DNA of 64,000 nt from Candidatus Yanofskybacteria bacterium (GCA_016185545.1 JACPNJ010000002.1:51299-115298), one strand, 5' to 3'. Positions 26,481 to 40,459 are shown, counted from the stretch's first letter. Numbers and translations are program-made. The notes: generated from the sequence alone by a model not told the origin.

Positions 26481-27566
26481 TTGCGTTGGGTAAGATCTTT
26501 TATGTATAATAGAGGCATGGCTAAGTTGAGTAATAAATTTAAGGGGAATAAGCGAGTTGTGTTTTCGCACGGTAAGCAGAAAGAGTTTTTAGAAAAAACA
26601 CGATTTTCTTTAGGACTAAACAATGATAATTTCGCTAGATTAATAGGGGTTAGTCCAAGAACTCTAAATGACTGGAAAAGGGAAAAGTTTTATTTGCCTT
26701 TAAATAGCTTAAAAAAATTATGTGACAAGTCGGGTATATCTATGCCGAAGTATCTAGAAACAAAAGACCCATTTTGGTACACTTCACTGGGCGCGCATAA
26801 AGGAGGCATCGCATCTTTTAAAAAATACGGACACATAGGAGGAGATCCCGAATATCGCAAGAAAAAATGGCATGAATGGTGGCAAAGTAGCGGTAGATTC
26901 AGAAAAGATATGATAACTTTTCCTATTAAAGTTATAAAACCGTCCAAATCTAAAGAGCTAGCAGAGTTTGTCGGTATTTTACTAGGAGATGGAGCAATCA
27001 CTAAAAAACAGATTACTATAACTCTTCATAAAGTCGACGATAGGGATTTCACCGATTATATCTGCTACTTGATTGAAAAACTTTTTCATTTAAAACCAGC
27101 TCTTTACGAACGAGAAAGTGTCAATAACATAGTTATTTCCAGAACAGAATTAGTTAGATATTTTGTAAAAAATTTAGGCTTACATATTGGCAGTAAAATC
27201 CGACAACAAGTAGATGTTCCGATGTGGATTAAAAAGTCGGGGATATTTTCTAGGGCATGCTCGAAAGGATTGTTTGATACAGATGGATGTTTTTATATTG
27301 ATAAGCATAAATATAACAACAAAACTTATCTAAATTGTGGTATGAATTTTACAAATCGAGCCCTACCACTCCTTTCTTTTTTTAAAGAAACCTTACAAAA
27401 ATACAATCTCTCCCCTACTCAAAAAACTCATTACAGTATCTTTTTAAGAAGGGAGGAAGATATAATAAAATACTTTGATAAAATAGGGTCGTCTAATCCG
27501 AAACATTATAATAAATTCAATAATTTTTTAATAAATAAACACGGTGAGGTACCGAAGTGGTCATAA
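26481..27566 (+). CDS. HTH (XRE-like) + double-motif LAGLIDADG homing-endonuclease-like protein
   Basis: N-terminal HTH (LGLNNDNFARLIGVSPRTLNDW); two LAGLIDADG-type motifs (LAEFVGILLGDGAI and SKGLFDTDGCFYID); 3' end overlaps tRNA-Ser by 24 nt. Confidence 0.75.
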   Translation: MRWVRSFMYNRGMAKLSNKFKGNKRVVFSHGKQKEFLEKTRFSLGLNNDNFARLIGVSPRTLNDWKREKFYLPLNSLKKLCDKSGISMPKYLETKDPFWYTSLGAHKGGIASFKKYGHIGGDPEYRKKKWHEWWQSSGRFRKDMITFPIKVIKPSKSKELAEFVGILLGDGAITKKQITITLHKVDDRDFTDYICYLIEKLFHLKPALYERESVNNIVISRTELVRYFVKNLGLHIGSKIRQQVDVPMWIKKSGIFSRACSKGLFDTDGCFYIDKHKYNNKTYLNCGMNFTNRALPLLSFFKETLQKYNLSPTQKTHYSIFLRREEDIIKYFDKIGSSNPKHYNKFNNFLINKHGEVPKWS

Positions 27567-27633
27567 CGGGGACGCCTCGAAAGCGTCTTGCTCCGAAAGG
27601 GGCCCGTGGGTTCGAATCCCACCCTCACCGCCA
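27543..27633 (+). tRNA. tRNA-Ser (anticodon CGA), long variable arm, CCA encoded
   Basis: acceptor GGTGAGG/CCTCACC with discriminator G and CCA; anticodon stem GACGC/GCGTC with loop CTCGAAA; T-arm GTGGG-TTCGAAT-CCCAC. Confidence 0.8.
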
Positions 27634-27657
27634 GATGTCCAAGTTAGAACCTAATTT

Positions 27658-28353
27658 ATGCTAGTACAAAAATTCGATAAATTTCTACAATCAGTTGACC
27701 TCAAATCCTATCGTGATCAGTATAGGCCTATTAAAATTGTAGAAATGGATATGCCCAAAGAGGTTCAAGCTATCAATATGCTTTACAAAGTATATTGGGA
27801 CCAAAAGAAATTCTTGTCTTTTGAAGATTTTTACAAAGAGTACTTAAATTCTCTAAAAACAGAAATTGAATCCTTCAGACAAAGAACAACGATGTGTAAA
27901 GATTGTTTTTATCGAGGATTGCCCGCAAGAATTTATCGTACTTGGGCAAGTATTATCACTCAAATCCACGCTGGTTATGTAGCTGAGTCGGTTTTTGGCG
28001 AAGGTACAATTGCGATGTCAGGTGAGCTTGATCATCAAGGAGCTGATTTTCAAGTTAAATATAGAGGGAAGATTTTAAACTACCAAGTTAAAAAGAAATC
28101 ATTTAGTGGAGAAGTGAGGCGTGGTAAGGGTGGAGTTAAAAACAAAATCGATGGAGAATTTATTGATATTAACTATGAAGTTCCAAGTGGTGATTATTTC
28201 GAAAATCCAAAGAAAAAAGATGGCACTGATAAATTACCATACGCCAGGTTTATGGCAAATAAAGAATTAGAAAGATTCCCGAATGGTTTTGTGGTTTTTA
28301 CCCCTTATCCTTTTGAACAAAAGAAAAGAGAGATAGATAACTCTCTAAAATAA
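27658..28353 (+). CDS. hypothetical protein; candidate nuclease partner of the adjacent methyltransferase
   Basis: 231 aa; convergent with the MTase gene with a 9-nt 3' overlap; weak PD-(D/E)xK-like segment ELD...DFQVK; function unverified. Confidence 0.35.
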   Translation: MLVQKFDKFLQSVDLKSYRDQYRPIKIVEMDMPKEVQAINMLYKVYWDQKKFLSFEDFYKEYLNSLKTEIESFRQRTTMCKDCFYRGLPARIYRTWASIITQIHAGYVAESVFGEGTIAMSGELDHQGADFQVKYRGKILNYQVKKKSFSGEVRRGKGGVKNKIDGEFIDINYEVPSGDYFENPKKKDGTDKLPYARFMANKELERFPNGFVVFTPYPFEQKKREIDNSLK

Positions 28354-29868
28354 TTTAGCAACGGACTTTTTATCACCTACCATTTTTTCTGCCAGCCTTA
28401 CATAATCAGGATTAATCTCAAAGCCAATATAAGATTGACCTAATTCTTTGGCCGCCGCGCACTCCGAGCCGGTGCCAACGAAAGGCACTAACACAACACC
28501 ATCTTTTTTCGGCATAGCAGATTTTATCAATTTTTTAGATAATTCAAATGGTTTTTGTGTTGGATGCTTCATTATTTCATGTCCATCATGATTTTTTAGT
28601 TGTCGTGGCTCACATACAGAGTCGCAGGTTTTACACAAAAACCATCTTTCATTCATTCCAGCTCCACCGGCGAGGGCAGGAACTTTGATAACATCTCTTG
28701 GTAAAGCTCCACCCTCGTGGGCTTTATAAACGGTTTCCAAACCGCTACTACTGAATCTCCCCAGTGTTCCTTTTCTTACCTTTCCAGCGGCTCCATTTAG
28801 AAATCCCTCTGTATATGGTTCTCTAACATCATCTCTGTTGAAAACAGGTTTATCTTTCCAAGCGCAAATGATAGCTTCATGGCTTCTTTGCCAAAAATTT
28901 AGAGAGGCAACATTTTTATTAGTGTAATGCCATATAAGCCATCTTTTTTGTATAGGAATTTCAACAGAGAGATACGCTAGAATTTCACTAAAACCATAAA
29001 TAAAAATTGTTCCGTTTGGTTTTAGTGTTCTTATGCTTTCGTTTATCCAACTTTTACACCACTCAACATATTCTCCAAGTTCTCGTTTATCTATATTATT
29101 CCCAAAATCCTTTCCGATATTATAAGGTGGATCAATTATGATAACATCACAACTTTCGTCAGGAAGTTTTCTTAATTCTTGAATTGCGTCTCCCAAAATT
29201 ATTTGATTGAGAGATAATTTCTTATCCTTCTTTATTTCTTTTGTTATCGTTATTTCTTCCGCCTGTAATTCCTCTTCGTTTTTAATAACATCAATAACAA
29301 TTCCTTGAATTTTTATGTCTCGATCCCTCCTTATTATAATTGGCTCAAAAGTTTTATTTGCGGGTTGTAGCCGAATATGTCCTCGTTCTTTATAAAATCT
29401 CTTTAGTGTTGCCTCGTGATTGTCTATTAATGCAACAACTCGCTCGCCGTTTTCTGCAACATCTTGCTGTTTTACCAAAACAACATCTCCATCTTGAATA
29501 TTCTCGTCAATCATACTGTTGCCCATTACGCGCAAAGCGTAAAGATTGCCAGCGCTAGGCAATATATTTTTAGGAACAGCAATAAATTCGTCTTGACGAA
29601 TTGCCTCTATTGGCTCCCCAGCGGCGATAGTTCCTAAAAACGGAATTTTGACCATTGGTTTCTTAGAAGCAATGCTGATGGCACGGGCTTTATTTTCTAT
29701 ATTCCCCAAATAACCACCTTCTTTAAGTTTTGAGATATGAAAATGAACAGTTGAAACAGAGGCGAGTTTAAGTCGTTTTCTAATTTCCTCAAATGAAGGA
29801 GAATACCCCTTCTTTTGTGAGTAACTTTCTATGAAGTCGAGGACTTCTTTTTGGCGCTTTGTGAGCAT
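28345..29868 (-). CDS. LexA (HTH + S24 peptidase) fused to an N4/N6 DNA methyltransferase
   Basis: residues ~1-200 are LexA-like (winged HTH; RVMGNSM Ser; ATLKRF Lys); residues ~210-507 are MTase (motif IV DPPY, motif I FVGTGS); single uninterrupted 507-aa ORF. Confidence 0.75.
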   Translation of the reverse strand: MLTKRQKEVLDFIESYSQKKGYSPSFEEIRKRLKLASVSTVHFHISKLKEGGYLGNIENKARAISIASKKPMVKIPFLGTIAAGEPIEAIRQDEFIAVPKNILPSAGNLYALRVMGNSMIDENIQDGDVVLVKQQDVAENGERVVALIDNHEATLKRFYKERGHIRLQPANKTFEPIIIRRDRDIKIQGIVIDVIKNEEELQAEEITITKEIKKDKKLSLNQIILGDAIQELRKLPDESCDVIIIDPPYNIGKDFGNNIDKRELGEYVEWCKSWINESIRTLKPNGTIFIYGFSEILAYLSVEIPIQKRWLIWHYTNKNVASLNFWQRSHEAIICAWKDKPVFNRDDVREPYTEGFLNGAAGKVRKGTLGRFSSSGLETVYKAHEGGALPRDVIKVPALAGGAGMNERWFLCKTCDSVCEPRQLKNHDGHEIMKHPTQKPFELSKKLIKSAMPKKDGVVLVPFVGTGSECAAAKELGQSYIGFEINPDYVRLAEKMVGDKKSVAKLF

Positions 29869-29894
29869 ATAGATTTGACTTGTTTACTATGCAT

Positions 29895-29935
29895 CTATTA
29901 TAATAGAACAAAAATAGAAAATCAAAGCTACTTAT
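29895..29935 (-). promoter_or_regulatory. promoter (-35 TTGATT, 16 nt, -10 TATAAT); the -10 lies inside the 12-nt perfect palindrome CTATTATAATAG, a candidate operator
   Basis: read on the minus strand ~30 nt upstream of the lexA-MTase start; palindrome at 29895..29906. Confidence 0.35.
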
Positions 29936-29954
29936 CCACACCTTAAATAAGACC

Positions 29955-30833
29955 ATGGAAGACTCCAATATAGAAATTTCATTTGAACTCTCGGTTTGCC
30001 TTCATTTAGATAAAGAGGCGGTGTTTTTACTTAAAATCAACGAGCGAGATGTAGAGATAAAAACAAACGATGTCATATATGAAAATACTAGATTTGGTCG
30101 GGCACAAAATACAGAAATCTACAGTGATACAGATTCTGGTTTTCGTTACACCAAAATTACAATTTCATTTAAAGATACCAACCCAAAGATACCCCTTGAT
30201 AATTTAATTTTGGCATATAAAGATTTAATACTTGAAAGTGTTAATAAATTTATAGATGCATATCGATTTATTACTGGACGAGTAGCAATTTCCAATATTG
30301 CCTCAATATCAGATTTGTTCGGATTATCGTGTTTTAGACGAAATGCCAAAGGCGGCGGAACTGGAATGATAACTATAAATTTTGGAGGAGTAGGAATTGC
30401 TGGAAAGCAGGTTGCTATGGGACAATTTAAAACAGATCTAGATATTAAAGATAACGAAAAGATGCAGAACCTATTAAAGACAGGAGGGATTCCCCTGGAA
30501 GATCTTTTTATAATGGATGCAAAAAGACATCTTCAAATCGGACATAAAATTCAAGCATTGATTAGCGCAGTTATAGCCACTGAAATTGTTGTTAGATCAA
30601 AAAATAATTGGTTTGTAAGATTTTTGTATAAAGGAAAATTACTAGAATTTAATTTAATAAAAGAACTAAAGTATAAACTTCCGAAAGAAAGTCTATCTAT
30701 AATAATTGGAGGTATAAAAGAAAGAAATCGAGTAATTCATGACGGCAAGAGAGATTTGACGATTGATATTTCTAAGTACATAAAGGAAACAGAAAAAGCA
30801 ATAAATAAATTGAGAACTCCCGTTATTATTTAA
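29955..30833 (+). CDS. hypothetical protein (very AT-rich orphan)
   Basis: 292-aa ORF with no recognisable motifs; sits between the MTase locus and the DGR-like cassette. Confidence 0.5.
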   Translation: MEDSNIEISFELSVCLHLDKEAVFLLKINERDVEIKTNDVIYENTRFGRAQNTEIYSDTDSGFRYTKITISFKDTNPKIPLDNLILAYKDLILESVNKFIDAYRFITGRVAISNIASISDLFGLSCFRRNAKGGGTGMITINFGGVGIAGKQVAMGQFKTDLDIKDNEKMQNLLKTGGIPLEDLFIMDAKRHLQIGHKIQALISAVIATEIVVRSKNNWFVRFLYKGKLLEFNLIKELKYKLPKESLSIIIGGIKERNRVIHDGKRDLTIDISKYIKETEKAINKLRTPVII

Positions 30834-30991
30834 CAGAATAATCGACTGCGTTTTTGCCCTTATCTGACTTCGGCTTTGGTACCTCAAACCACTCGGGATG
30901 CACTTTGTAGATAGCCCTCAATTCTTGTATACTCCTATCAATATCCTTGAATTTAAACCACGTTTTCGGTTCTAACTTGCGGACATCGTCC

Positions 30992-31069
30992 CCGCCAAGT
31001 CGAGATAGGTTATCCCGCTGGAGGAGCGTCGATAACATAAAACCATCTAACGGTGGTTTTATGTTATCG
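30992..31069. repeat. boundary motif M1 (ccgccaagtcgagataggttatcccgctggagga) plus 16-bp perfect-stem hairpin (cgataacataaaacca/tggttttatgttatcg)
   Basis: a second copy of the motif sits at 38787..38820 with a different hairpin. Confidence 0.5.
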
Positions 31070-31122
31070 TTTGTAGTAATAGATTAACCAAATATTTTCT
31101 GATACTATAAAAATAACAACTT

Positions 31123-31222
31123 AGCCTAAACCTGCTTAACGGCTGGCATGGCACCAAACCACCTGCATACCAAACTTGTCGTTTGGCTTCCACACATGTG
31201 GTTATAGAGGAAACTCTATAAG
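31123..31222 (+). repeat. boundary element R1 (agcctaaacct ... ggcatggcac ... cacctgcat-hairpin-cacatgtggt), imperfect direct repeat of R2
   Basis: shared blocks with 38205..38313 read directly; possible structured ncRNA or att-like site. Confidence 0.45.
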
Positions 31223-31695
31223 AGAGCTTCTGCTCTCAGCCAGACGACTTTTTTATTGCTTGTTTAATCGAAAAAAGATCTGATTTTCAAGATCTTGCTG
31301 AAGAATAAAAGAATTACTATGACTTAAGATCCCCATATAGGAATGGATGGTATGGTCAAGTGACTCATAAGACAACGACCCTTGGTTTAAAAGATTCTCC
31401 CCCGAATTTTACCTGGTAGCAGTCCTTTAGTTTTCTCGGGACATCTACGCTGAAATAAAACACGTAGTTTCGTAGTTTTTACTACTTTCCGGCCACGCCA
31501 CTTCTTATAGCCAGGGCCATAAGAACTCCGGTGGATATCAAAAAGAGGAGGTTCGTAAGATTAAACCAGCCTGAGCCGGGCCCAATCTCTATTAACAAAA
31601 CTCCATGACATTATCACATAAAATACCCAGCCATAAAAGGTCTGGTAAAATTCTTCTTTAGGCTGTATATTTATATGTAAAAGTCCAATCTCACT

Positions 31696-32523
31696 ATGCC
31701 GTTCGAAGCCTATAAAATCTACGAAGAATACGAGCCGGACAAATTTAAAACATCAACCCAGAAAAAGGTTGAGCAGGCTTTAGATACCGCTAAAAAAGAA
31801 GGGCTGGTACCGGAGGGCAAAGAGATTAACATCGAGTTCGACGAGGCAAGAGAGATATTCGGCAAAGATTTTCTAGGTCCGGAAGCTATCAAGACCACAT
31901 ACGGAATAGAACTTACCCCGGATGAATTGCAAGAAATTGAGAATATACCATTTACCAGAGAAGAATTAGAACAAGCCAAACAACTGGGCATGATGTTAGT
32001 TCTTCGAGTGCCAAATATAGGCGAGGGCAAGGAAGCCAAACCTCTAACCATTGATCGAATCCGTGAGAAGTTTTCTGGCGGTGATACTTTTGGCGATCCC
32101 AAGAAAAAGAAGAAGAAAATGTTTTATCGAAGCAAAGGTGATGGGTGGTTTGATAAGGAAAAGTTTGCTCTCGAAGGAACTCCCAAGCTTGGCTGGGGCC
32201 TAGTAATGAAATCTGTCTTGCCTGACTCACTGAGCAAGAATTGGGATCAACAAGAGGAAGTACTAAAAAACTGGGCTAAGCAAAATAATATTGATCCGGC
32301 GTTAGTTAAACGCAGGACTCCTGTAGAAATTGCCTATGATACATTTCTCTACTATGGAGAGAATAAAGAAACTCTCTTAGAAGATAAGTGGGACTGGTCA
32401 GGCGTGCAGTCTTCCGGCGGCTACTTCGTCTTCGTTGGCGGCTTCGACTCGGGCGGTCTCTTCGTCAGCTACGATTCCCGCGACAATGCGGGTTCGAATC
32501 TCGGTGTCTGCCCCTCTCGGTAG
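31696..32523 (+). CDS. cassette paralog P1 (275 aa) with a hypervariable GC-rich C-terminal region
   Basis: first ~110 nt identical in all three paralogs; conserved end LGVCPSR; variable region at 32413..32502. Confidence 0.7.
   Translation: MPFEAYKIYEEYEPDKFKTSTQKKVEQALDTAKKEGLVPEGKEINIEFDEAREIFGKDFLGPEAIKTTYGIELTPDELQEIENIPFTREELEQAKQLGMMLVLRVPNIGEGKEAKPLTIDRIREKFSGGDTFGDPKKKKKKMFYRSKGDGWFDKEKFALEGTPKLGWGLVMKSVLPDSLSKNWDQQEEVLKNWAKQNNIDPALVKRRTPVEIAYDTFLYYGENKETLLEDKWDWSGVQSSGGYFVFVGGFDSGGLFVSYDSRDNAGSNLGVCPSR
32413..32502 (+). other. candidate DGR variable region (VR1)
   Basis: A-depleted, GC-rich 90-nt block; differs from VR2/VR3 only at codon positions 1-2 of NNC/NNT codons. Confidence 0.55.
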
Positions 32524-32590
32524 TTTCGCCTTGGGCGCTTGGATGCCTTGATCCTTATTGATCCCTTGGGGTATTCGAAAAAAAATTTAA
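32503..32590 (+). repeat. conserved post-VR element (IMH-like): ggtgtctgcccctctcggtag tttcgccttggg.gcttggat.ccttgat.cttattg
   Basis: about 80% identical after all three paralogs, including the non-coding part. Confidence 0.5.
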
Positions 32591-32629
32591 GACTGGTAAA
32601 ATCTTTATATAACTTGTAACATTTATTAT

Positions 32630-34315
32630 ATGTCTAACTCAAAAGAATCACTTCCCCCAATGCCAAATATGCCCACTACTCCTGAACGAATCATCGAGGA
32701 GAAGGGCATCGATAAAACAAAGAAGAAGGAAAAACTTTCTCCAGAGCAGCTTGAAGCTAGAGTCCAAGAACTTATGGACTTATCGGCCGCTCGAGCCGAA
32801 GCTTCTAAGCATATTCGTGAGTCTTGGGGCGGTTTGACCAAAAGCGAGCGAGAAGAACTGGCAGAGAAGGGAGATGATGCCACAGCAGCTCAATTCGACG
32901 CACTCAAAGTTGATCCGGAGCTGGCAGAATTTTCTGAAAATGTCCTTGCTGAATACGATAAGCGTATTCAAGAGCTTGGCAGCAACCCCAAGGTCATGGA
33001 GGCCTATAATGAACGCTTTGAAGGAATGAAAGACGCCTTAGCTAAAGTTCTCGAGTACGAACATCTCCATAAAGAGCTTGATGCAATCATCAGCAGTGAA
33101 CAGAAACTTTGTCTGATGTATGAAAAGGTCGGACGTTCGCCTGGGCCGATTGAGCGAACCAAACTGACTGATCTGGTAAAACGTAAAGAAGAATTACAAA
33201 AAGAAATAAACGGTTTTAAATTGGATTCGGCATCGATCAATATGCTTCGACGCCGAGAGGTTCGGGGTATGCAGCGAGATTTGGAGCGTTACAACTTTGC
33301 TGAAACTGAATCCCGCACCGAACTCATACGAGAAGTCTTGCCTGACTTGCTTCATGGCGCACCGATTCTGTTTCAAGGCGAGACTGGCTCTGGTAAAACC
33401 CAGTTGGCTAAATATATTTCTCATAGATTCCTTGGCCATGAAGTTTCGCCGATTTCTATCTCTGAACAAATAAAAGAGTCCCAAATCATGGGTCGGGTCA
33501 CCTTGAAAGAAGGTGCCACCGATTTTTTGTATTCTGAATTAGTCAAAAGCATGAAGGAGGGTCGCCCAGTAATTATGGATGAAATCAATTTAATGCCCCA
33601 TGAATTTCAGGGCATTCTCAACGAGATTTTCCAACTACGAATTGGCAGCACTTGGAAACACCCATCCACTGGCGAATCAATTAAGATTGCTCCCGGTTTT
33701 GTGATCTTTGCTACCGCCAACCTTAAGTCAGAGCGCTACAAACAACGTTACGAACTTGATGTTGCTACTCTTCGTCGTTTCATCGGTGGTGCCGGTGCGC
33801 GTGAAATCCACTACTTAGATTTAGGCAAGAAAAGCAAAGAGGGAGAATATATCGCACCCGAGACTCTTAAGATTCTAGCCTCGGTATTGGCAGATCGAAA
33901 CGGCAATATTACTTGGAGCGAACAAGAATCGCCTCAAAAACTTGATGAGCTAAAGAGATTTGTGGGTGCTTGCCGTAAAATCCAAGAAGACTTTACCTTG
34001 AGCGTCCGAGAAGGTTCTGAAGACTCATTGGCTCGAGGCGACAAGCTGGCTTTCAAAGAACTGGTCATCACCCTCAAGGATCAGATTGAGATTATGAAAG
34101 CATGGAAAGCGTCTGGTTTTGTCGAACCGCTAGAAAGTATTGTTCTGCGAGAATTCTTCAGAAAAGCTGAAATCAGCGGTCGAGCCGCCAAAGACCGAGA
34201 AAATATGGTCAAAGTATTTATGGCCAATAAGTTTTTCCAAGATACTAAACCTGAAGATTTTAATATCCAAGGCCTATCGGCTAAAACAGTTCGCCAATGG
34301 CAAGGAAAAGAATAA
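32630..34315 (+). CDS. MoxR-like AAA+ ATPase with an N-terminal coiled-coil extension
   Basis: Walker A GETGSGKT; Walker B VIMDEIN; sensor FATANL; ATLRRF. Confidence 0.8.
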   Translation: MSNSKESLPPMPNMPTTPERIIEEKGIDKTKKKEKLSPEQLEARVQELMDLSAARAEASKHIRESWGGLTKSEREELAEKGDDATAAQFDALKVDPELAEFSENVLAEYDKRIQELGSNPKVMEAYNERFEGMKDALAKVLEYEHLHKELDAIISSEQKLCLMYEKVGRSPGPIERTKLTDLVKRKEELQKEINGFKLDSASINMLRRREVRGMQRDLERYNFAETESRTELIREVLPDLLHGAPILFQGETGSGKTQLAKYISHRFLGHEVSPISISEQIKESQIMGRVTLKEGATDFLYSELVKSMKEGRPVIMDEINLMPHEFQGILNEIFQLRIGSTWKHPSTGESIKIAPGFVIFATANLKSERYKQRYELDVATLRRFIGGAGAREIHYLDLGKKSKEGEYIAPETLKILASVLADRNGNITWSEQESPQKLDELKRFVGACRKIQEDFTLSVREGSEDSLARGDKLAFKELVITLKDQIEIMKAWKASGFVEPLESIVLREFFRKAEISGRAAKDRENMVKVFMANKFFQDTKPEDFNIQGLSAKTVRQWQGKE

Positions 34316-35134
34316 ATGCCATTTGAAGCCTACAAAATCTACGAAGAATACGAACCGGATAAATTCAAGACCTCAACCCAGAAAAAGGTTGAGCAAGCTC
34401 TCGATACCGCTAAAAAAGAAGGACTAGTTCCGGAGGCAAAAGAGGCCCATGTTGAATTTGAAGAAGCCCAAGAAATATTTGGGCTAGATTTTCTTGGTCC
34501 CGAATCTGTTGGGACAACTTTTGGTGTTGAGTTTTCCCAAGAAGAGCAAAATCAGATAGAAAACATCCCATTTACTCGTGAAGAATTAGAAAAAGCCAAA
34601 GAGCTTGGAATGATGCTGGTTTTGCGAGTGCCACGAGTTGGCAAGGACAAGACTGCTAAGCCCCTTACGATCAAGCAAATGCGAGGTGCATTCAAAGGAG
34701 AAGATAAACTTGGCGATCCTAAAAAGAAAAAATCCCAAATCTTCTTCGATCAGGATTGGTATAACAAGGAAGAATTCGCCACCAAAGACACTCCATCCCT
34801 TGGTTGGGGTCTTGTTACGAAGAAAATACTAGAAGAATCAAGAAGTAAAAACTGGGATCAGCAACAGGAAGTACTTAAAAAGTGGGCAGAAGAAAATGGC
34901 ATTGACCCCACTTCAATTAAACGCCGAACTCCAGTTGAGATAGCTTACGATACACTTCTTTATTATGGCTCGAACAAGGAGTCATTGTTAACAGATACCT
35001 GGGACTGGTCCGGCGTGCAGTCATCCGACGGCGGCTTCGTCGGCGTTGGCTACTTCGACTCGGTCGGTCTCAGCGTCTACGACAATTCCCGCGGCAATGC
35101 GGATTCGGATCTCGGTGTCTGCCCCTCCCGGTAG
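34316..35134 (+). CDS. cassette paralog P2 (272 aa) with a hypervariable C-terminal region
   Basis: start abuts the MoxR stop; same N-terminus and LGVCPSR end as P1 and P3. Confidence 0.7.
   Translation: MPFEAYKIYEEYEPDKFKTSTQKKVEQALDTAKKEGLVPEAKEAHVEFEEAQEIFGLDFLGPESVGTTFGVEFSQEEQNQIENIPFTREELEKAKELGMMLVLRVPRVGKDKTAKPLTIKQMRGAFKGEDKLGDPKKKKSQIFFDQDWYNKEEFATKDTPSLGWGLVTKKILEESRSKNWDQQQEVLKKWAEENGIDPTSIKRRTPVEIAYDTLLYYGSNKESLLTDTWDWSGVQSSDGGFVGVGYFDSVGLSVYDNSRGNADSDLGVCPSR
35034..35123 (+). other. candidate DGR variable region (VR2)
   Basis: see VR1. Confidence 0.55.
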
Positions 35135-35214
35135 TTTCGCCTTGGGAGCTTGGATCCCTTGATTCTTATTGGTTCCATTGGGTATTCGAAAAATTTTTAT
35201 ATAACTACACCTAA

Positions 35215-37209
35215 ATGCCAGAATCATTTCCCATAAATAGAATAGAAACTCCTCAAGACGAACCTAAACCAGAGGTTCCAAAGCAGGAAAGCGAAATTGA
35301 TGCTCAAGCAGTTGAGGAATTTTTAAATAAGGAAACTGAAATACTAGGAGCTTACGGGTTACGAGGTGATATTACACTGGAACGAGGGAATGGCGGTTGG
35401 GCATTTGATTTTCAGAATCGAAAGTTAATTTACGATCCAAAGTTCTTCATAGAACGTGGCTATAGCCTCCAGGAAACTCTCTTTGCCACCACTCACGAAC
35501 TCATGGCTCACTACGGTGAGCTTATGCGTGATCCGGAGCTTGTCTTAAAGGAAGCTAAGAGATATAGCGCAAAAGGTCACCTCCATCTTTTATACAATAT
35601 CTTTGAAGATGTGTTGGGCAACAGACGTATTGTTGCCGAATTGCCGTTCTTAGAAGAAACTCGCGAATCGCTTTATCGAGAAAAGATGTTTCCACCGACT
35701 GACTACACTGATAAATCTTCTCATGTTCAGTTTACTTATGGTTTTATTCGCCAGATGATGGTGCCTGGAGAGGCAGTACAACTTGGGCCGGAGGCGCAGG
35801 CCGCTTTGGATAAGCTGAGAAGCTTTGGTTCAGATAAAATAGATATCCTTGATCTAGTTACTACACCAACCATTGACCCCAAAGATCGCTTTCAAATAAT
35901 GCGAACAATTGTTGAACCTATTTACCGAGAACTCTATGAAAAGGATTTAGAAGAAGAAAAGAAAAGCGGCAAAAGCAAGGATCAGGGCGAAGGGTCACCC
36001 ACGGATACTCAAGTTTCTGATAAACCTCAACAAGGCCAAGGTTCTGGCCAAGATAAGAAAAAATGGTGGCAAAGAAAAAAGGAAACACCCCAAGAAGGAA
36101 AAGGTAAAGAGGAACAACCTGGCAAAGGTGGGGATAAAAAATCCAGTGAACGAGCCGCTAGAGAAGCGGCTGAAAAGAAATTTAAGAAAGAATATAAAAC
36201 CTATCACGACGGTCATCCGGAACCCATAACTCATGCCGAAGAAAAGGAGATCAAGAAGTTGATGGAAGAAATAGTTGCTAAAAAGGGCGGACAACCTACT
36301 CTAGAGCAAAATATTCTTGAGGAATGGGCTCGTGAGCATGGAGTCAGCGCCGAGGATGTTCTTGGCTATCGCAAAGAGTATGAAGAGATCGCTCCCCTAG
36401 TAGCTGAGCTAAGGGAAGTTTTTAAGAAGATCATTGCCAGGAGATTAAAAGAACGATGGCAGTTTTCGCCTCAGCTCAAAACAGAAGGCGAAGAACTAGC
36501 CGAAGATACGCTAGTCGACTCTTCAATTGAATCTCGAGCCGGAGGCCAGCCAAGGGCATTTAGAGAGATTGAGAGACATAAACGAGAGCAGGAGGGCTAC
36601 GGCATGCTTGATATGTCTTTGGTTAATGATTTATCCGGTTCTATGAATGACGGGGATGGCAGTAAGCTTGAGATGGACCGCAAGAGCAAACTCCTATTCT
36701 TGGAATCTCTGGCCGATTTTCAAAAAGAAATAGAAGAAGCCGAATTTGAAAGTGGTGTTTCGTTGGGTCTTCAAGTTAGAACCGAAACCAGAGCTTTTGG
36801 CGATTTTGGAGATGTAGAATTAAAGTCGTTATCACCTGATCTTTCTGAAAAAGATAGAATTGGGATTTGGAAAAAAATGCATAAAGCTGGTGGCGGTACG
36901 CCGGATTATCTTTCTCTTGAAGAAGTTTTAAACTCAATTACTCCTGAACAAGAAAAGGAGTTAAGAGAGAAATTAAGAAGAAAAGTTATCGTCGTACTTT
37001 CTGATGGTGAAAGCCAAGATTCAGGGAAAGTTCAGGCTGTTTTACTCCAGTTAAGGAATAAGGGGGTTATTTGTTTAGGATTGGGCATGACTGAATCAGG
37101 TCAAGCTGTTAAAGAAACATATAAACCGGATGCCGAAGTAATAACAGATATCAAGGCGTTGCCTCAAGCGGTTCAAAAAGTTATTCTAAAATATACCCAA
37201 GATTTGTAA
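35215..37209 (+). CDS. zincin-like (HExxH) + low-complexity linker + von Willebrand factor A domain protein
   Basis: HELMAH motif near residue 95; Lys/Glu/Gly-rich linker; MIDAS DxSGS (DLSGSMND) and VVLSDGES. Confidence 0.75.
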   Translation: MPESFPINRIETPQDEPKPEVPKQESEIDAQAVEEFLNKETEILGAYGLRGDITLERGNGGWAFDFQNRKLIYDPKFFIERGYSLQETLFATTHELMAHYGELMRDPELVLKEAKRYSAKGHLHLLYNIFEDVLGNRRIVAELPFLEETRESLYREKMFPPTDYTDKSSHVQFTYGFIRQMMVPGEAVQLGPEAQAALDKLRSFGSDKIDILDLVTTPTIDPKDRFQIMRTIVEPIYRELYEKDLEEEKKSGKSKDQGEGSPTDTQVSDKPQQGQGSGQDKKKWWQRKKETPQEGKGKEEQPGKGGDKKSSERAAREAAEKKFKKEYKTYHDGHPEPITHAEEKEIKKLMEEIVAKKGGQPTLEQNILEEWAREHGVSAEDVLGYRKEYEEIAPLVAELREVFKKIIARRLKERWQFSPQLKTEGEELAEDTLVDSSIESRAGGQPRAFREIERHKREQEGYGMLDMSLVNDLSGSMNDGDGSKLEMDRKSKLLFLESLADFQKEIEEAEFESGVSLGLQVRTETRAFGDFGDVELKSLSPDLSEKDRIGIWKKMHKAGGGTPDYLSLEEVLNSITPEQEKELREKLRRKVIVVLSDGESQDSGKVQAVLLQLRNKGVICLGLGMTESGQAVKETYKPDAEVITDIKALPQAVQKVILKYTQDL

Positions 37210-37210
37210 T

Positions 37211-38038
37211 ATGCCATTTGAAGCCTACAAAATATACGAAGAATACGAACCAGATAAATACAAAACCTCAACCCAGAAAAAGGTTGAGCAGGCCTTGGAT
37301 ACTGCTAAAAAAGAGGGCCTGATACCCGAAGCCAAAGAAGTTAATATCGAATTCGACGAAGCCAAAGAAATATTTGGCAAAGACTTTCTCGGCCCCGAAG
37401 CAATTCAAACTACTTTCGGCGTAGAATTAACACCAGACGAGCTCAAAGAAGTAGAAGACGTTCCCTTTACCAGAGAAGAACTTGAGCAAGCAAAACAACT
37501 CGGCATGATGCTCGTTTTAAGAGTACCTAGACTTGGCGAAGGCAAAACAGAGCGTCCTCTAACAATTGATTCTGCCAGAGAACTATTTACCAAGGGCGAT
37601 TCCTTGGGTGATCCTAAGAAAAAGAAACAAAAAGTATTCTATAGTAAAAAGGGCGAGAGTTGGTACAACAATGAAAAGTTTGTGACCCAAGACACTCCTA
37701 AACTCGGCTGGGGTCTAGTCATGAAATCGGTATTACCAGATTCGCTAAGCAAGAATTGGGACCAGCAGGAAGAAGTTCTCAAGAAGTGGGCAAAGGATAA
37801 TAACATAGACCCTGCCCTAGTTAAAAGAAGAACTCCTGTAGAAATTGCCTACGATACCCTTATATATTACGGCGAGAATAAAGAATCATTGCTAAAGAAT
37901 AGATACGACTGGTCTGGCGTGCAGTCTTCCGGCGGCGACTTCGTCTTCGTTGGCCACTTCGACTCGGACGGTCTCCTCGTCAGCCACGATTCCCGCGGCA
38001 TTGCGCATTCGTATCTCGGTGTCTGCCCCTCTCGGTAG
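37211..38038 (+). CDS. cassette paralog P3 (275 aa) with a hypervariable C-terminal region
   Basis: ATG 2 nt after the vWA stop; same architecture as P1 and P2. Confidence 0.7.
   Translation: MPFEAYKIYEEYEPDKYKTSTQKKVEQALDTAKKEGLIPEAKEVNIEFDEAKEIFGKDFLGPEAIQTTFGVELTPDELKEVEDVPFTREELEQAKQLGMMLVLRVPRLGEGKTERPLTIDSARELFTKGDSLGDPKKKKQKVFYSKKGESWYNNEKFVTQDTPKLGWGLVMKSVLPDSLSKNWDQQEEVLKKWAKDNNIDPALVKRRTPVEIAYDTLIYYGENKESLLKNRYDWSGVQSSGGDFVFVGHFDSDGLLVSHDSRGIAHSYLGVCPSR
37928..38017 (+). other. candidate DGR variable region (VR3)
   Basis: see VR1. Confidence 0.55.
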
Positions 38039-38204
38039 TTTTGTAGGGTGCTTGGGAGCTTGGACCCCTTGATTCTTATTGGTTCTCTTGGGTATTCGAA
38101 AAAATTTTAAGATTCTCTAGTTGGTATCTCATTTTACTAATTAATTGACCTAAGCTAAGGTTGGACGCAATGGTCGTTTTTTGCTATTATTCTCTTAACA
38201 ATTA

Positions 38205-38313
38205 AGCCTAAACCTAGAGATTATTCTATAGGCATGGCACTAAATATACCCACCTGCATTCTGAACCCGTCGTTCAGCTCCATGCAGGTGGTCTATATCC
38301 GAAAGGGTATAGG
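38205..38313 (+). repeat. boundary element R2: nested hairpin CCACCTGCAT[tCTGAACccgtcGTTCAGctc]CATGCAGGTGG, followed by GNRA-tetraloop hairpins
   Basis: imperfect direct repeat of R1; inverted repeats read directly. Confidence 0.45.
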
Positions 38314-38388
38314 AAGGCGAAAGCCTTCGGCTAGCGGCGGGCTTTGAGTTTAAAGAAGCCCCCCGTTGGTTAAGAAATCCACCTGCGT

Positions 38389-38646
38389 ATGAAAAACATT
38401 AAAAAAATTGTTCTTTTCGGTTTTGGAGCATTTGTTCTCCTGGTCGTTGTAATCCTAATAGTTCCTTCTTCTGATAAAAAAGAAGGTGTACAAACAGTAC
38501 AAAATTTACCAAGTGTAAGTCCTAGCGTAAGTGCAAGCCCTGTTGTTAGTAATAAGGCGACTGTAAAAGCAACTCAGAAACCCCAAGCGTCTGGAGAATA
38601 TGCAGTCGTTAAAGTTGTTGACGGTGATACTGTTGATTTAAATTGA
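38389..38646 (+). pseudogene. N-terminal fragment of a secreted thermonuclease (SNase)-like protein
   Basis: signal/TM then YAVVKVVDGDTVDL (SNase N-terminal motif), then a stop after 85 aa; the rest of the domain is absent. Confidence 0.4.
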
Positions 38647-38786
38647 AAAATTCACTGAATTGAGTTATACCTAACTTAATTAAAAACTTGAAATTGTTAA
38701 TGTTCACGCTGGAGCCGCTCGGATTTCTGCCCGCCACCCACGCCGCCTTCGGCGGCGAAATGCGTTCGAGCTAATTCAAGAATACA

Positions 38787-38870
38787 CCGCCAGGTTGAGA
38801 TAGGCTATCACGCCGGAGGAAGATCGAATAAAACGCGCAATTAAAAACGGCTTCAGCCGTTTTTAATTGC
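38787..38870. repeat. boundary motif M2 (ccgccaggttgagataggctatcacgccggagga) plus terminator hairpin gcaattaaaaacggc-ttca-gccgtttttaattgc
   Basis: direct repeat of M1; a GC-rich UUCG-loop hairpin (gccgccttcggcggc) lies just upstream at ~38742. Confidence 0.5.
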
Positions 38871-38902
38871 TAAAAAACCAAAAAAATGATAAAATTTTCC
38901 TC

Positions 38903-40459
38903 ATGTTTGCAAAACAAACAACTAGAAACCAGCAACTAGAAACTAGCAATTACGCCCCTCGTCCTCCCATTGTGGTTGTTTTAGGTCATGTTGACCATGG
39001 CAAAACAACGATATTGGACAAAATCAAGCAAACAAAAGTAGCCGAAAAAGAAGCGGGTGGAATTACTCAGCATATCGGAGCTTACCAGGTCAGCCATAAT
39101 GAAAAAAAAATAACTTTTCTTGATACGCCCGGACATGAGGCATTTAGCGCGATTCGTTCGCGCGGAGCCAAGGTCGCCGATATCGCCATCCTTGTGGTCG
39201 CAGCCGATGAGGGTGTCAAACCGCAAACCAAAGAAGCGATACAAATAATCAAAGAAGCTGATATTCCCTTTGTGGTAGCAATAAATAAAATGGATAAAGA
39301 AGGGGCAAACGCAGACAAAACAAGGCAGGAATTGGCGGAATCGGAAGTACAAGTTGAAGATTATGGCGGTACCGTACCGGTTGTTGAACTTTCGGCTCAA
39401 AAAAACGAAGGCATAAGGGAACTTTTGGAAATGATTCTGCTCGTAGCCGAAATGGAAGAATTTAGCGCGCCTACGGAAGGATTGGCTAAAGGCGTGGTAA
39501 TAGAATCTCATATGGATGCCAAACGAGGTTTAGTTGCTACGCTTATAGTGCATGAAAGAGAATTAAAAACTGGCGATTGGATTGCCGCTGGCTCCGCGTA
39601 CGGCCGGGTAAAATTGCTTGAAAATTTTTTGGGCGAATCAATAAAAATCGCTACGGCTTCACAGCCATGTGTAGTGTTTGGCTGGGAAAGCGCGCCCGGC
39701 GTCGGATGTGAATTCCAAGCCGTATCTTCCAGACAGGAAGCGGAAAAAAACGCCGCTTTAAAAGCAGAATTGGGACCGCCAACTTTATTCGCCAAAGAAA
39801 CCGGAAGCGAAGAACAAAAAACAAATAAAAGAATTGCCAATTTAACCATTAAGGCCGATGTTCAAAGCTCACTTGAAGCGATAGACCAGACACTTAAAAC
39901 CATACATTCCGATGAGGTTGAGTATAGCGTTATTAATTTTGGAGTCGGCAATATCGGCGATAACGATATAAAAAACGCACGAGCCACCGGATCAACGGTA
40001 TTGGGTTTCCATGTTGGCATAGATGGCTCTGCCAAACAGTTGGCAGAAAGGGATCAGGTTAAAACTCAAACCTTTGATATAATATATGAGCTGGTTGAAG
40101 CAGTGCGTTCAATTATGTCAGACCTCCTTGATCCTGAAATTAAACGGATTCCTCTGGGTAAATTAAAAGTTTTGGCCACATTTAAGAACATGCCTAAATC
40201 ACAGATTGTCGGCGGTAAAGTAACACAGGGCAAGATTGAACGCGGCGCTCTGATTGATGTGATTAGAAACGGCGCCTTGCTTATAACTGGCAGACTCGGC
40301 CAACTCCAACACAACAAAGCAGATGTTGCCGAAGTAAGCGAAGGACTCGAAACCGGAATTAGATTTGATTCCTCCGCACAACTAACATTGCAACAATTAA
40401 TAAAAGAAGGTGATATGCTAGAAGTTTATCAGGAAGAAAAAATTAAACGAACCATTTAA
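38903..40459 (+). CDS. infB: translation initiation factor IF-2 (short form)
   Basis: G-domain [22 protein letters not shown]. The ORF track starts at 38867 inside the terminator hairpin, so the more likely start is the ATG at 38903. The 5' coding region contains a heptamer-repeat copy at 38918..38947. Confidence 0.9.

What the first reader, a model, noticed from the sequence alone, without database searches (positions are those of the whole stretch)
30992..38870. Two families of imperfect direct repeats (M1/M2 and R1/R2) bracket the cassette; possible island boundaries or structured RNAs
A 34-nt motif (ccgcca[ag]gt[ct]gagatagg[tc]tatc[ca]cgc[tc]ggagga) followed by a strong hairpin occurs at 30992..31069 and again at 38787..38870. 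A ~100-nt element (agcctaaacct..ggcatggcac..ccacctgcat-[hairpin]-catg.aggtgg) occurs at 31123..31222 and 38205..38313. Together they bracket the 7.8-kb cassette and a truncated nuclease gene. The right-hand copy of R is highly structured: a 10-bp outer stem enclosing a 6-bp inner stem, followed by GAAA-tetraloop and further hairpins. A GC-rich UUCG-loop hairpin (gccgccttcggcggc, ~38742) precedes M2. These could be att-like duplications from insertion of an island, or copies of a small structured RNA or regulatory leader. The order of M and R differs between the two sides (M–R versus R–...–M), so a simple target-site duplication does not explain them.
Basis: seen in the sequence. Interest (0 to 1): 0.55.

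Follow-up and report, generated by a model that had tools for sequence, protein, structure and literature searches.

The report
LOOT RNAs and tRNA-end junction boxes
Both repeat families are real: R is two copies of a known structured RNA (LOOT), M is a junction sequence normally found at the end of a tRNA gene, and the DNA between them is a decayed diversity-generating retroelement island in a Patescibacteria genome, so the finding is largely explained by known kinds of element.

Summary
Both repeat families are real and non-random.

**R1 and R2.** R1 (31123-31237) and R2 (38205-38328) are copies of LOOT RNA (Rfam RF03000). They score 49.9 and 79.8 bits against a gathering score of 46.4.

**M1 and M2.** These are copies of a ~40-nt box that starts with a tRNA 3' end (CCGCCA). 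Each is followed by an intrinsic-terminator hairpin. In related Patescibacteria contigs the same box sits directly on the CCA end of tRNA-Ser or tRNA-Gln genes. The box alone is unstructured and does not look like coding sequence.

**The cassette.** It is the target array of a diversity-generating retroelement (DGR). Three paralogous variable-protein genes are interleaved with a MoxR-type AAA ATPase and a vWA protein. A 1.5-kb deletion has removed the reverse transcriptase (RT), Avd and the template repeat.

**The wider region.** The whole tRNA-Ser(CGA)-to-infB interval (27634-38860) is accessory DNA. The closest relative found (IF-2 83% identical) carries four unrelated genes there.

**What looks new.**
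- LOOT occurs in 7 of 8 independent DGR islands of this family.
- Strong copies lie 48-66 nt upstream of a start codon and behind a conserved promoter, so LOOT is probably a 5' leader.

**Verdict.** These are new members of known kinds, with moderate interest.

The parts
27543..27633 (+). tRNA-Ser(CGA) with encoded CCA; anchor of the accessory region
   Evidence: ARAGORN and Rfam. The relative L063 has tRNA-Ser(CGA) in the same place after the PBP1A gene.
27634..30987 (.). Restriction-modification module: TaqI-like endonuclease (27658-28353, +), LexA-S24-N6_N4 methylase fusion (28345-29868, -) and a 292-aa protein of unknown function (29955-30833, +). It is bounded by inverted repeats GATGTCCAAGTTAGAACC (27634-27651) and GGTTCTAACTTGCGGACATC (30968-30987), and it separates the tRNA from M1.
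   Evidence: Pfam. The core of the inverted repeat was found by the tool (I13) and extended by reading. GC is 33-37% against 40-46% in the flanks. In L048 tRNA-Ser(CGA) abuts M directly.
30992..31029 (+). M1 junction box (CCGCCA + AGTCGAGATAGGTTATCCCGCTGGAGGAGCGT)
   Evidence: Homology to L016, L048, L045 and L042 starts at 30991/30992. An identical 22-nt core lies at tRNA CCA ends in L042, L043, L048 and L050.
31030..31069 (+). Intrinsic-terminator hairpin after M1 (16-18 bp stem with an inner A-run and T-run)
   Evidence: fold z -5.5.
31123..31237 (+). R1: weak-type LOOT RNA, convergent with the RT remnant and with no ORF downstream
   Evidence: Rfam 49.9 bits against a gathering score of 46.4, with part of helix P2 broken. 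Orthologues in L016, L017, L042, L045, L048 and L050.
31256..31387 (-). Remnant of the DGR reverse-transcriptase gene (C-terminal 44 aa only). The deletion junction is at about 31388.
   Evidence: tblastn gives 95% identity to the L016 RT over 44 aa. Window 30991-31387 matches L016 3730-4129 and window 31389-31683 matches L016 5637-5932, so 1.5 kb carrying RT, Avd and TR is missing.
31696..32523 (+). DGR variable-protein gene 1 (275 aa); VR about 32404-32526
32630..34315 (+). MoxR/dynein-type AAA_5 ATPase
   Evidence: Pfam PF07728, E 6.5e-20.
34316..35134 (+). DGR variable-protein gene 2 (272 aa); VR about 35015-35137
35215..37209 (+). vWA-domain protein (664 aa)
   Evidence: Pfam PF00092, E 9.5e-6.
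37211..38038 (+). DGR variable-protein gene 3 (275 aa); VR about 37919-38044
   Evidence: AlphaFold model with pLDDT 86; top fold matches are FGE and C-type-lectin domains but are not significant.
38051..38109 (+). Third copy of a 59-nt repeat that follows each variable-protein gene (the others are at 32530-32588 and 35141-35199)
   Evidence: Family D4, 81-93% identity. No significant hairpin.
38162..38190 (+). Promoter-like site for R2 (TGGACG, 17-nt spacer, TATTAT, with TG)
   Evidence: The same TGGACG and -10 arrangement lies upstream of LOOT in L006, L010, L019 and L059.
38205..38328 (+). R2: strong-type LOOT RNA
   Evidence: Rfam 79.8 bits, E 2e-13. Covariation on 14 LOOT copies.
38329..38371 (+). 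Extra hairpin 3' of the Rfam model, with a conserved GGGCUUU(U)G loop motif
   Evidence: Fold -23.4 kcal/mol, z -2.7. The motif recurs after every strong LOOT copy.
38389..38646 (+). Truncated staphylococcal-nuclease (SNase) gene: signal/TM segment, linker and the first residues of the domain. It starts 60 nt after LOOT.
38785..38827 (+). M2 junction box, preceded by CA so that CACCGCCA equals the last 8 nt of the window's tRNA-Ser(CGA)
38837..38870 (.). Terminator hairpin after M2 (bidirectional type). Homology with relative L063 resumes at 38861.
   Evidence: (z -3.5).

Best explanation
**Setting.** The window comes from a Candidatus Yanofskybacteria (Patescibacteria) genome. Between tRNA-Ser(CGA) and infB lies about 11 kb of accessory DNA built from modules.

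**M is the module junction.** It is a ~40-nt box whose first bases are the discriminator plus CCA of a tRNA, followed by a terminator. In intact relatives the order is tRNA-Ser, M, terminator, weak LOOT, then the RT gene on the opposite strand, Avd, the template repeat and the target array.

**How the two copies arose (inferred).** M1 is the tRNA-proximal end of the DGR module. M2 is a second, 85%-identical copy of that junction left next to infB. Both would be products of repeated site-specific insertion at the tRNA 3' end. A large serine recombinase found in related islands is the likely enzyme, but it is absent here. A restriction-modification module later landed between the tRNA and M1.

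**R is LOOT RNA.**
- R2 is a full copy. It is transcribed from its own sigma-70-type promoter and sits 60 nt upstream of a now-truncated secreted-nuclease gene. It most likely acts in cis as a 5' leader of island accessory genes.
- R1 is a degenerate copy that converges on the 3' end of the RT gene.

**The cassette is a dead DGR.** Three variable-protein genes plus MoxR-AAA and vWA remain. A 1.5-kb deletion removed RT, Avd and the template, so the variable regions are frozen.

**What is shown and what is inferred.**
- Shown: the identities, homologies, the deletion, the tRNA adjacency and the variability of the interval.
- Inferred: the recombination mechanism and the cis-regulatory role of LOOT.
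For: **LOOT identity**
- Rfam hits pass the gathering score.
- On 14 copies, 86.9% of cells are paired and 26 of 38 pairs show compensatory changes. Slid controls reach at most 40%.

**LOOT travels with these islands**
- Copies occur in the window, L006/L056, L010 (two copies), L016/L048/L045/L042, L019 (RT only 43% identical), L059/L060 and L061/L062. None was found in L003.

**LOOT as a leader**
- Seven independent strong copies end 48-66 nt before an ATG of an ORF of 85 aa (the truncated window gene) to about 410 aa.
- A conserved TGGACG-17-TATTAT promoter lies upstream.
- A conserved 3' hairpin follows the Rfam model.

**DGR**
- Relatives carry RVT_1 and bAvd next to the same five-gene array.
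- The L048 template repeat against the window VRs shows 17-19 mismatches in 129 nt, of which 13-14 fall at template adenines.
- The window holds no template repeat and only a 44-aa RT remnant.
- The deletion is mapped against L016.
- The same 275-aa protein is identical in three sequencing runs.

**M**
- Two copies against 0 expected.
- It starts on the CCA of tRNA-Ser in L042/L050, L043 and L048, and on the CCA of tRNA-Gln in L046/L054, L051 and L055.
- In L053 it follows a 26-nt tRNA 3' fragment.
- Homology with related islands starts at 30991/30992.

**Accessory interval**
- L063 (IF-2 83% identical) has PBP1A, tRNA-Ser(CGA), four unrelated genes, then infB. It has no M, no LOOT above noise and no DGR.
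- Homology stops after the PBP1A gene at about 26445. tRNA-Ser(CGA) is syntenic but too divergent for BLAST. Homology resumes at 38861.

**Recombinase**
- The serine recombinase family of the DGR islands L003, L006 and L010 also occurs in the M-bearing island L044/L047 at 62% identity. Fragments occur in L055 and L016.
Against: - No recombinase gene lies in the window's island, and no excised or truly empty site was found. Insertion at M is therefore inferred from junction anatomy only.
- The tRNA-derived repeat is short: 8 nt before M2 and 6 nt in M1. No larger tRNA remnant is detectable upstream of either copy.
- Serine-recombinase integration does not normally leave a 34-nt imperfect direct repeat. 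M1 and M2 cannot both be simple products of one event.
- L042/L050 keep M, the hairpin and weak LOOT but have no second M.
- M-bearing loci L055 and L046 show no intact integrase.
- For LOOT, Rfam labels the family an sRNA. One viral copy (L025) lies inside a tRNA array with no ORF, and R1-type copies have no downstream ORF. A purely cis role therefore does not cover all copies.
- The CCACCTGC repeat next to the start codon in R2 is not conserved in other copies.
Confidence: 0.72

Rival explanations
1. M is a host-encoded, conserved 3' trailer of tRNA genes, for example a processing or termination signal or a 3'-ETS-type small RNA. M1 and M2 would be leftovers of two tRNA transcription units whose tRNAs were displaced or deleted. 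No site-specific recombination would be involved.
For: - M lies exactly after the CCA of complete tRNA genes in 6 independent contigs.
- In the Yanofskybacteria cases it is followed by a terminator, as expected for the end of a tRNA transcription unit.
Against: - The box is rare. There were 5 true hits among 185,579 species genomes and 9 hits (8 after discounting the doubtful L041 match) in 241 million metagenome records.
- Its 22-nt core is nearly identical across Saccharibacteria, Paceibacterota and Yanofskybacteria, while the adjacent tRNAs differ.
- It also occurs without any tRNA next to unrelated DNA, in L016, L044/L047, L045 and L049.
- The closest relative's tRNA-Ser(CGA) has no M.
- The box has no fold of its own (z about 0).
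Confidence: 0.17
2. M1 and M2 are attL and attR of a single integration of the 7.8-kb DGR island.
For: - They are direct repeats bracketing the island.
- Both begin with the tRNA 3' end.
- CACCGCCA before M2 equals the end of the window's tRNA-Ser.
Against: - The copies are only 85% identical over 34 nt, and the longest exact run is 8 nt.
- Relatives with 90%-identical islands (L016, L048) show M only at the tRNA-proximal end.
- L042/L050 lack a second M.
- The variable interval begins at the tRNA 3.4 kb upstream of M1, not at M1.
Confidence: 0.15
3. LOOT (R1 and R2) is a trans-acting small RNA gene, as labelled in Rfam, and not a cis-acting leader. Its position next to genes would be incidental.
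For: - Rfam types it 'Gene; sRNA'.
- R1-type copies and the L025 copy have no ORF downstream.
- A conserved promoter and a U-rich motif after the last helix could define a short transcript.
Against: - Seven independent strong copies keep 48-66 nt to the next start codon on the same strand. They have no canonical terminator in between, and the U-run lies in a hairpin loop.
- The LOOT 5' module alone also sits about 25 nt upstream of a small zinc-ribbon ORF in about 12 viral contigs.
Confidence: 0.3
4. M is the remnant of a protein C-terminus (frame ...RQVEIGY[P/H]AGG...) duplicated with its terminator.
For: - Four of the five M1/M2 differences fall in one codon phase and are synonymous in that frame.
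Against: - The chance of 4 or more of 5 differences sharing a phase is about 0.14.
- The frame is closed by stops 20-45 codons upstream in both copies.
- In six contigs the box follows a tRNA directly, so no ORF can enter it.
Confidence: 0.02

Closest known systems
LOOT RNA motif (Rfam RF03000; from the Weinberg et al. 2017 comparative screen, PMC5737381; shown as a 'metagenomic-based RNA' in the Rfam 14 paper, PMC7779021)
   Same: R1 and R2 match the full 121-position model above the curated threshold. Both have the 5' module AGCCUAAACC-hairpin-GGCAUGGC, a long hairpin and two GNRA-capped hairpins.
   Different: - R1 has a partly broken long helix and scores just above threshold.
- The copies here carry features outside the Rfam model: a conserved promoter, a fifth hairpin with a conserved U-rich loop, and a fixed distance to a start codon.
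- They sit on DGR islands. I found no such context in the main text of the 2017 paper or in the Rfam 14 paper. The supplement of the 2017 paper, where the motif would be described, is not held and could not be checked.
Diversity-generating retroelements (BPP-1 type: RT, Avd, TR/VR with adenine mutagenesis)
   Same: - Relatives have RVT_1 RT, bAvd and a 125-nt TR.
- The window's three VRs differ from that TR almost only at adenines.
- The VRs lie at the C-terminus of the target proteins.
   Different: - The window's copy has lost RT, Avd and TR.
- There are three targets.
- In the relatives avd lies on the strand opposite to TR and RT.
vWA-MoxR (VMAP) ternary conflict systems coupled to DGRs (Kaur et al. 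2020, PMC7159879; Dore et al. 2024, PMC10907252)
   Same: A MoxR-class AAA ATPase and a vWA protein are encoded together with DGR-diversified proteins.
   Different: - The diversified domain is on separate small proteins rather than fused to vWA.
- The host is a small-genome Patescibacteria lineage, not a multicellular cyanobacterium or proteobacterium.
- No third 'VMAP' component was identified.
tRNA-anchored genomic islands with att repeats derived from the tRNA 3' end
   Same: - An accessory region lies directly 3' of a tRNA gene.
- Short direct repeats of the tRNA end occur at module junctions.
- The interval differs in the nearest relative.
- Modules appear to be arranged in tandem.
   Different: - The repeats of true tRNA sequence are only 6-8 nt.
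- The conserved part (M) lies outside the tRNA.
- No integrase is present in this copy.
- The associated recombinase in relatives is a large serine recombinase rather than a tyrosine integrase.

Membership tests
LOOT RNA (RF03000) | Score at or above the curated gathering threshold (46.4 bits) over the full model | tested here: met
   R2 scores 79.8 bits and R1 scores 49.9 bits, both over model positions 1-121.
LOOT RNA (RF03000) | Conserved secondary structure supported by covariation | tested here: met
   On 14 copies, 86.9% of cells are paired and 26 of 38 pairs have compensatory changes, against at most 40% paired in slid controls. R1 and its orthologues break part of the long helix.
LOOT RNA (RF03000) | Acts as a free small RNA (Rfam type 'sRNA') | not testable with these tools
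   No expression data are available. The context (48-66 nt to a start codon in 7 copies) points to a leader instead.
Diversity-generating retroelement | Reverse transcriptase of the DGR clade in the locus | tested here: not met
   Only a 44-aa C-terminal remnant remains at 31256-31387. It is intact in the relatives L003, L006, L016, L048 and L019, and an apparently disrupted copy lies in L010.
Diversity-generating retroelement | Template repeat homologous to the variable repeats | tested here: not met
   There are no TR-like hits in the 64-kb window apart from the three VRs. A TR is present in relatives.
Diversity-generating retroelement | VR/TR differences concentrated at template adenines | tested here: met
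   The L048 TR against the window VRs shows 14/17, 13/19 and 14/17 mismatches at adenines.
Diversity-generating retroelement | Target protein with a C-type-lectin/FGE-type fold carrying the VR | tested here: inconclusive
tRNA-anchored integrative island | Accessory DNA directly 3' of a tRNA gene that is absent or different in a close relative | tested here: met
   Window 27634-38860 corresponds to L063 5807-9337, which holds four unrelated genes.
tRNA-anchored integrative island | Direct repeats derived from the tRNA 3' end at the boundaries | tested here: inconclusive
   CACCGCCA (8 nt) precedes and overlaps M2, and CCGCCA (6 nt) starts M1. These are too short to be significant alone, and no longer tRNA remnant was detected. 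L053 has a 26-nt tRNA fragment before M.
tRNA-anchored integrative island | Island-encoded integrase or recombinase | tested here: not met
   None lies in window 20-46 kb. Large serine recombinases occur in the related islands L003, L006, L010 and L044/L047.
vWA-MoxR ternary conflict system | Adjacent MoxR-type AAA+ and vWA genes with a variable effector or sensor | tested here: met
   AAA_5 and VWA Pfam hits are interleaved with three DGR-diversified proteins. The arrangement is conserved in 8 loci.

The most novel reading that the evidence does not exclude
Two linked ideas remain open.

**LOOT as a cis-acting leader.** LOOT may not be a free sRNA. It may be a promoter-proximal leader of riboswitch, antitermination or protein-binding type. 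It would control accessory genes for nucleases and surface proteins on DGR-carrying islands and phages of Patescibacteria.

**M as a recombination site.** The M box may be the recombination site of a large serine recombinase that targets the CCA end of tRNA genes. That would let unrelated defence and diversification modules stack behind one tRNA.
Probability: 0.3. Interest if true: 0.6.

Novelty: new member of a known kind. Interest (0 to 1): 0.4.

Why it matters
- **Context for an orphan RNA.** LOOT is a curated RNA family for which I found no described function or genomic context (the 2017 paper's supplement could not be checked). Here it has a reproducible context: DGR-bearing accessory islands of Patescibacteria, a conserved promoter and a fixed distance to a start codon. 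That turns 'unknown sRNA' into a testable leader hypothesis.
- **A marker for island junctions.** The M box can be used to find junctions behind tRNA genes in candidate-phyla genomes, where mobile-element biology is poorly known.
- **An annotation caution.** This locus is a dated example of DGR decay, with RT, Avd and TR deleted and the variable regions frozen. A target array alone does not mean active hypermutation.

Tried and rejected
**M as an RNA or coding sequence**
- M as a known RNA: an Rfam E-value scan of 30500-39200 found nothing at M.
- M as a structured RNA: the box folds no better than shuffles (z 0.04 and 0.09). The GC-rich stretch before M2 has z +0.69.
- M as a coding remnant: rejected, as set out under the rival explanations.
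- A decayed tRNA upstream of M1 or M2: local alignments to six tRNA-Ser/Gln genes did not exceed shuffles.

**M as a transposon end or viral sequence**
- No inverted copy of M exists in any fetched locus.
- M is absent from IMG/VR viral contigs.

**DGR parts**
- A template repeat in 31240-31700 or elsewhere in the window: none.
- A hairpin or cruciform in the 59-nt repeat after each VR: none (z +0.6 to +1.1).

**LOOT**
- An alternative-pairing switch in R2, where CCACCTGC at 38379-38386 copies the 5' strand of the long helix: not conserved in other LOOT copies.

**Literature and structure**
- The LOOT name appears only in the Rfam 14 figure legend. The supplement of the 2017 paper is not held.

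**Empty site**
- The exact-protein look-up for infB with the TTG start failed. The ATG start worked.
- No clean empty site was found.

Full report
**1. Observation**

The two M copies (30992-31025 and 38787-38820) are 29/34 identical. They are the only matches in the window at up to 3 mismatches, with none expected in shuffles. Each is followed within 5-17 nt by a perfect 16-bp inverted repeat. These hairpins fold far better than shuffles (z -5.5 and -3.5) and are called terminator-like.

The two R copies align over about 115-125 nt, with conserved single-stranded blocks and compensatory changes in the stems.

**2. R is LOOT RNA**

Rfam places both copies in RF03000 (LOOT) over the whole model. 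R2 scores 79.8 bits and R1 scores 49.9 bits, against a gathering score of 46.4. R1 has several non-canonical positions in the long helix.

I built a covariance model from six copies and collected 14 distinct copies. On these, 86.9% of cells pair and 26 of 38 pairs show double changes. Slid controls reach at most 40%.

The papers I could read give no function. LOOT is listed only as a 'metagenomic-based RNA'. The supplement of the discovery paper is not held.

**3. The cassette is a DGR target array without its engine**

The three 272-275-aa paralogues have no Pfam hit. Between them lie an AAA_5 (MoxR-type) ATPase and a vWA protein. The paralogue family is small and confined to Patescibacteria.

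In related contigs the same five-gene array lies next to an RVT_1 reverse transcriptase and bAvd. These contigs are L003, L006-L009, L010, L016/L017, L048, L059/L060, L061/L062 and the viral contig L019. A 125-nt template repeat lies in the opposite orientation beside them.

The L048 template differs from the window's three variable regions at 17-19 of 129 positions. Of these, 13-14 are template adenines. That is the DGR signature.

The window itself has no template repeat, no Avd and only the last 44 codons of the RT gene (31256-31387, minus strand). Against L016, window 30991-31387 matches 3730-4129 (91%) and window 31389-31683 matches 5637-5932. A single 1.5-kb deletion therefore removed RT, Avd and TR.

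The third paralogue is identical in contigs from three sequencing runs, which fits frozen variable regions.

An AlphaFold model (pLDDT 86) gives FGE and C-type-lectin domains as its best fold matches, but they are not significant.

MoxR-vWA systems coupled to DGRs are known from other phyla (PMC7159879).

**4. What M is**

I scanned the metagenome and species-genome collections with a pattern that leaves the variable positions of M free. This returned 15 loci, 13 of them credible.

- *Directly after a tRNA.* In six independent cases the box starts exactly at the encoded CCA of a complete tRNA gene. These are tRNA-Ser(TGA) in L042/L050 and L043, tRNA-Ser(CGA) in L048, and tRNA-Gln in L046/L054, L051 and L055.
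- *After a tRNA fragment.* In L053 it follows a 26-nt tRNA 3' fragment.
- *Host range.* The hosts span Yanofskybacteria, Paceibacterota and Saccharibacteria, yet the 22-nt core is almost invariant.
- *Neighbouring DNA.* The DNA beyond the box is variable: the DGR module, a PrrC-like ATPase, a type III restriction system with a serine recombinase, and small unknown genes.
- *Other contexts.* The box also occurs with unrelated DNA on its left in L016, L044/L047, L045 and L049.

M alone has no significant fold. Its apparent codon-phase pattern cannot reflect an ORF when a tRNA precedes it.

M therefore behaves as a junction between a tRNA 3' end and accessory DNA. The serine-recombinase family found beside the DGR arrays in L003, L006 and L010 recurs in the M-bearing island L044/L047 at 62% identity. 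Fragments occur in L055 and L016. That makes it the candidate enzyme, but no recombinase is present in this window.

**5. Anatomy of the window's region**

tRNA-Ser(CGA) ends at 27633 with ...CACCGCCA. The order from there is:

- **Restriction-modification module, 27634-30987.** It is 3.35 kb with 33-37% GC against 40-46% around it. It encodes a TaqI-type endonuclease, a LexA-S24-methylase fusion and a 292-aa protein. It is bounded by 18-20-nt inverted repeats.
- **DGR module.** After 'gtcc' come CCGCCA (the start of M1), the terminator, R1, the RT remnant and the target array.
- **Right-hand end.** Next come the R2 promoter, R2 and the truncated SNase gene. About 140 nt further on lie CACCGCCA (overlapping the start of M2), the second terminator and the infB promoter.

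In L048 the tRNA-Ser(CGA) abuts M directly. The restriction-modification module is therefore a later insertion at the same junction.

The closest relative found is L063 (IF-2 83% identical). Its order is PBP1A, tRNA-Ser(CGA), four unrelated genes, infB, rbfA, tRNA-Cys and tRNA-Leu. It has no M, no LOOT above noise and no DGR. Nucleotide homology to the window stops after the PBP1A gene and resumes at 38861.

A second relative, L042/L050, has tRNA-Ser(TGA), M, terminator, R1-type LOOT, a 27-aa RT remnant, two other genes and then infB.

The tRNA-to-infB interval is thus a hot spot of accessory DNA. M1 is an internal module junction and M2 lies at the right-hand edge.

A single insertion bounded by M1 and M2 is unlikely, for three reasons:
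- The two copies are only 85% identical.
- Relatives have only the tRNA-proximal copy.
- The variable interval starts 3.4 kb upstream of M1.

Serial insertion at the tRNA end, each event bringing or regenerating an M, fits better. This remains an inference.

**6. LOOT context**

LOOT is present in 7 of 8 independent DGR, AAA, vWA islands. This includes one island whose RT is only 43% identical (L019).

There are two settings.

- *Strong copies.* These are R2 and the copies in L006, L010, L016, L019, L059 and L061. Each ends 48-66 nt before the ATG of a gene on the same strand. The genes are an SNase, a PD-(D/E)xK-like protein (in L006 and L019), a membrane OB-fold protein, a secreted protein, a 204-aa protein and a DUF4352 protein. 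Most strong copies (five of the seven) are preceded by a conserved TGGACG/-10 promoter about 7 nt upstream of the RNA, and all seven are followed by an extra hairpin whose loop carries GGGCUUUUUG.
- *Weak copies.* These are R1 and its orthologues, plus a second copy in L010. They converge on the stop codon of the RT gene and have no ORF after them.

The LOOT 5' module alone occurs in 22 IMG/VR contigs. In about a dozen of them it lies just upstream of a small zinc-ribbon ORF. Once it lies inside a tRNA array.

I read this as a leader RNA of island and phage accessory genes. An independent sRNA is not excluded.

**7. Verdict**

The repeats are real and are explained as follows:
- R is two members of a known RNA family.
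- M is a junction box of a tRNA-anchored accessory region.
- The cassette is a decayed DGR target array.

That R brackets the cassette is incidental. The M copies do mark island and module boundaries. The new elements are contextual, namely LOOT's link to DGR islands and its leader-like placement, and the M box at tRNA CCA ends across Patescibacteria. They are worth a targeted follow-up but are not a new kind of system.

Noticed in passing
window 27634-30987: A low-GC (33-37%) restriction-modification module lies between tRNA-Ser and M1. It is bounded by 18-20-nt inverted repeats (27634-27651 and 30968-30987) and flanked by CCGCCA on both sides. This looks like a small mobile R-M unit of unknown transposition type.
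   Followed up: partly
window 28345-29868 (-): A single 507-aa ORF fuses a LexA DNA-binding domain, a peptidase S24 self-cleavage domain and an N6/N4 DNA methylase. It lies next to a TaqI-type endonuclease. The fusion could tie methylase activity or R-M control to an SOS-type signal.
   Followed up: no
window 32530-32588, 35141-35199, 38051-38109: A 59-nt repeat (81-93% identical) directly follows the stop codon of each DGR target gene and is also conserved in related loci. It has no significant hairpin. It may be the cis element that marks a VR for homing.
   Followed up: partly
L006 8081-9659; L016 3995-5586; L048 1200-2788: In the intact relatives the avd gene lies on the strand opposite to RT and TR and between them. 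A TR-RT transcript would therefore run antisense through avd. I believe this is an unusual DGR layout.
   Followed up: no
window 30964-30984 and 36767-36787: A 21-nt inverted match (90%) links the right inverted repeat of the R-M module to a site inside the vWA gene. About 0.02 such matches are expected by chance in 10 kb. Its meaning is unknown.
   Followed up: no
L022, L026, L027, L029, L030, L033, L034, L037, L039, L040 (IMG/VR contigs): The LOOT 5' module (AGCCUAAACC-hairpin-GGCAUGGC) occurs without the rest of LOOT about 25 nt upstream of a small zinc-ribbon ORF (MCPQCGEMW...). It may be an independent functional module shared by several leaders.
   Followed up: partly
L025 6474-6585 (-): A full LOOT copy sits between two tRNA genes in a viral tRNA array with no ORF after it. 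This is the one context that argues for a free RNA.
   Followed up: no
L016 3200-3730: A 530-nt GC-rich stretch without a plus-strand ORF lies between a secreted-protein gene and the M box. It has no Rfam hit at E < 0.1. It may be another non-coding element.
   Followed up: no
window 26481-27566: An HTH-LAGLIDADG endonuclease ORF ends 24 nt inside the 5' end of tRNA-Ser(CGA). It is absent from relative L063 at this position.
   Followed up: no
window about 30904-30933, about 38669 and about 38764: Logan assemblies of three runs break their contigs at these points (L001, L013, L014). These are not exact repeats, so the breaks may reflect strain heterogeneity at the island edges.
   Followed up: partly
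window 38379-38386 and 38250-38257: CCACCTGC, the 5' strand of the long LOOT helix, is repeated 2 nt before the start codon of the truncated nuclease gene. This offers an alternative pairing that could mask the start codon. It is not conserved in other LOOT copies.
   Followed up: yes
L044 2970-2988 and 9607-9625: Direct repeat TTAA(A)GCAGTCC(C/A)GAC flanks a 6.7-kb island that holds M, a T5orf172-like gene, type III res and mod genes and a serine recombinase. These repeats are candidate att sites for that recombinase, with M lying just inside the left one.
   Followed up: no
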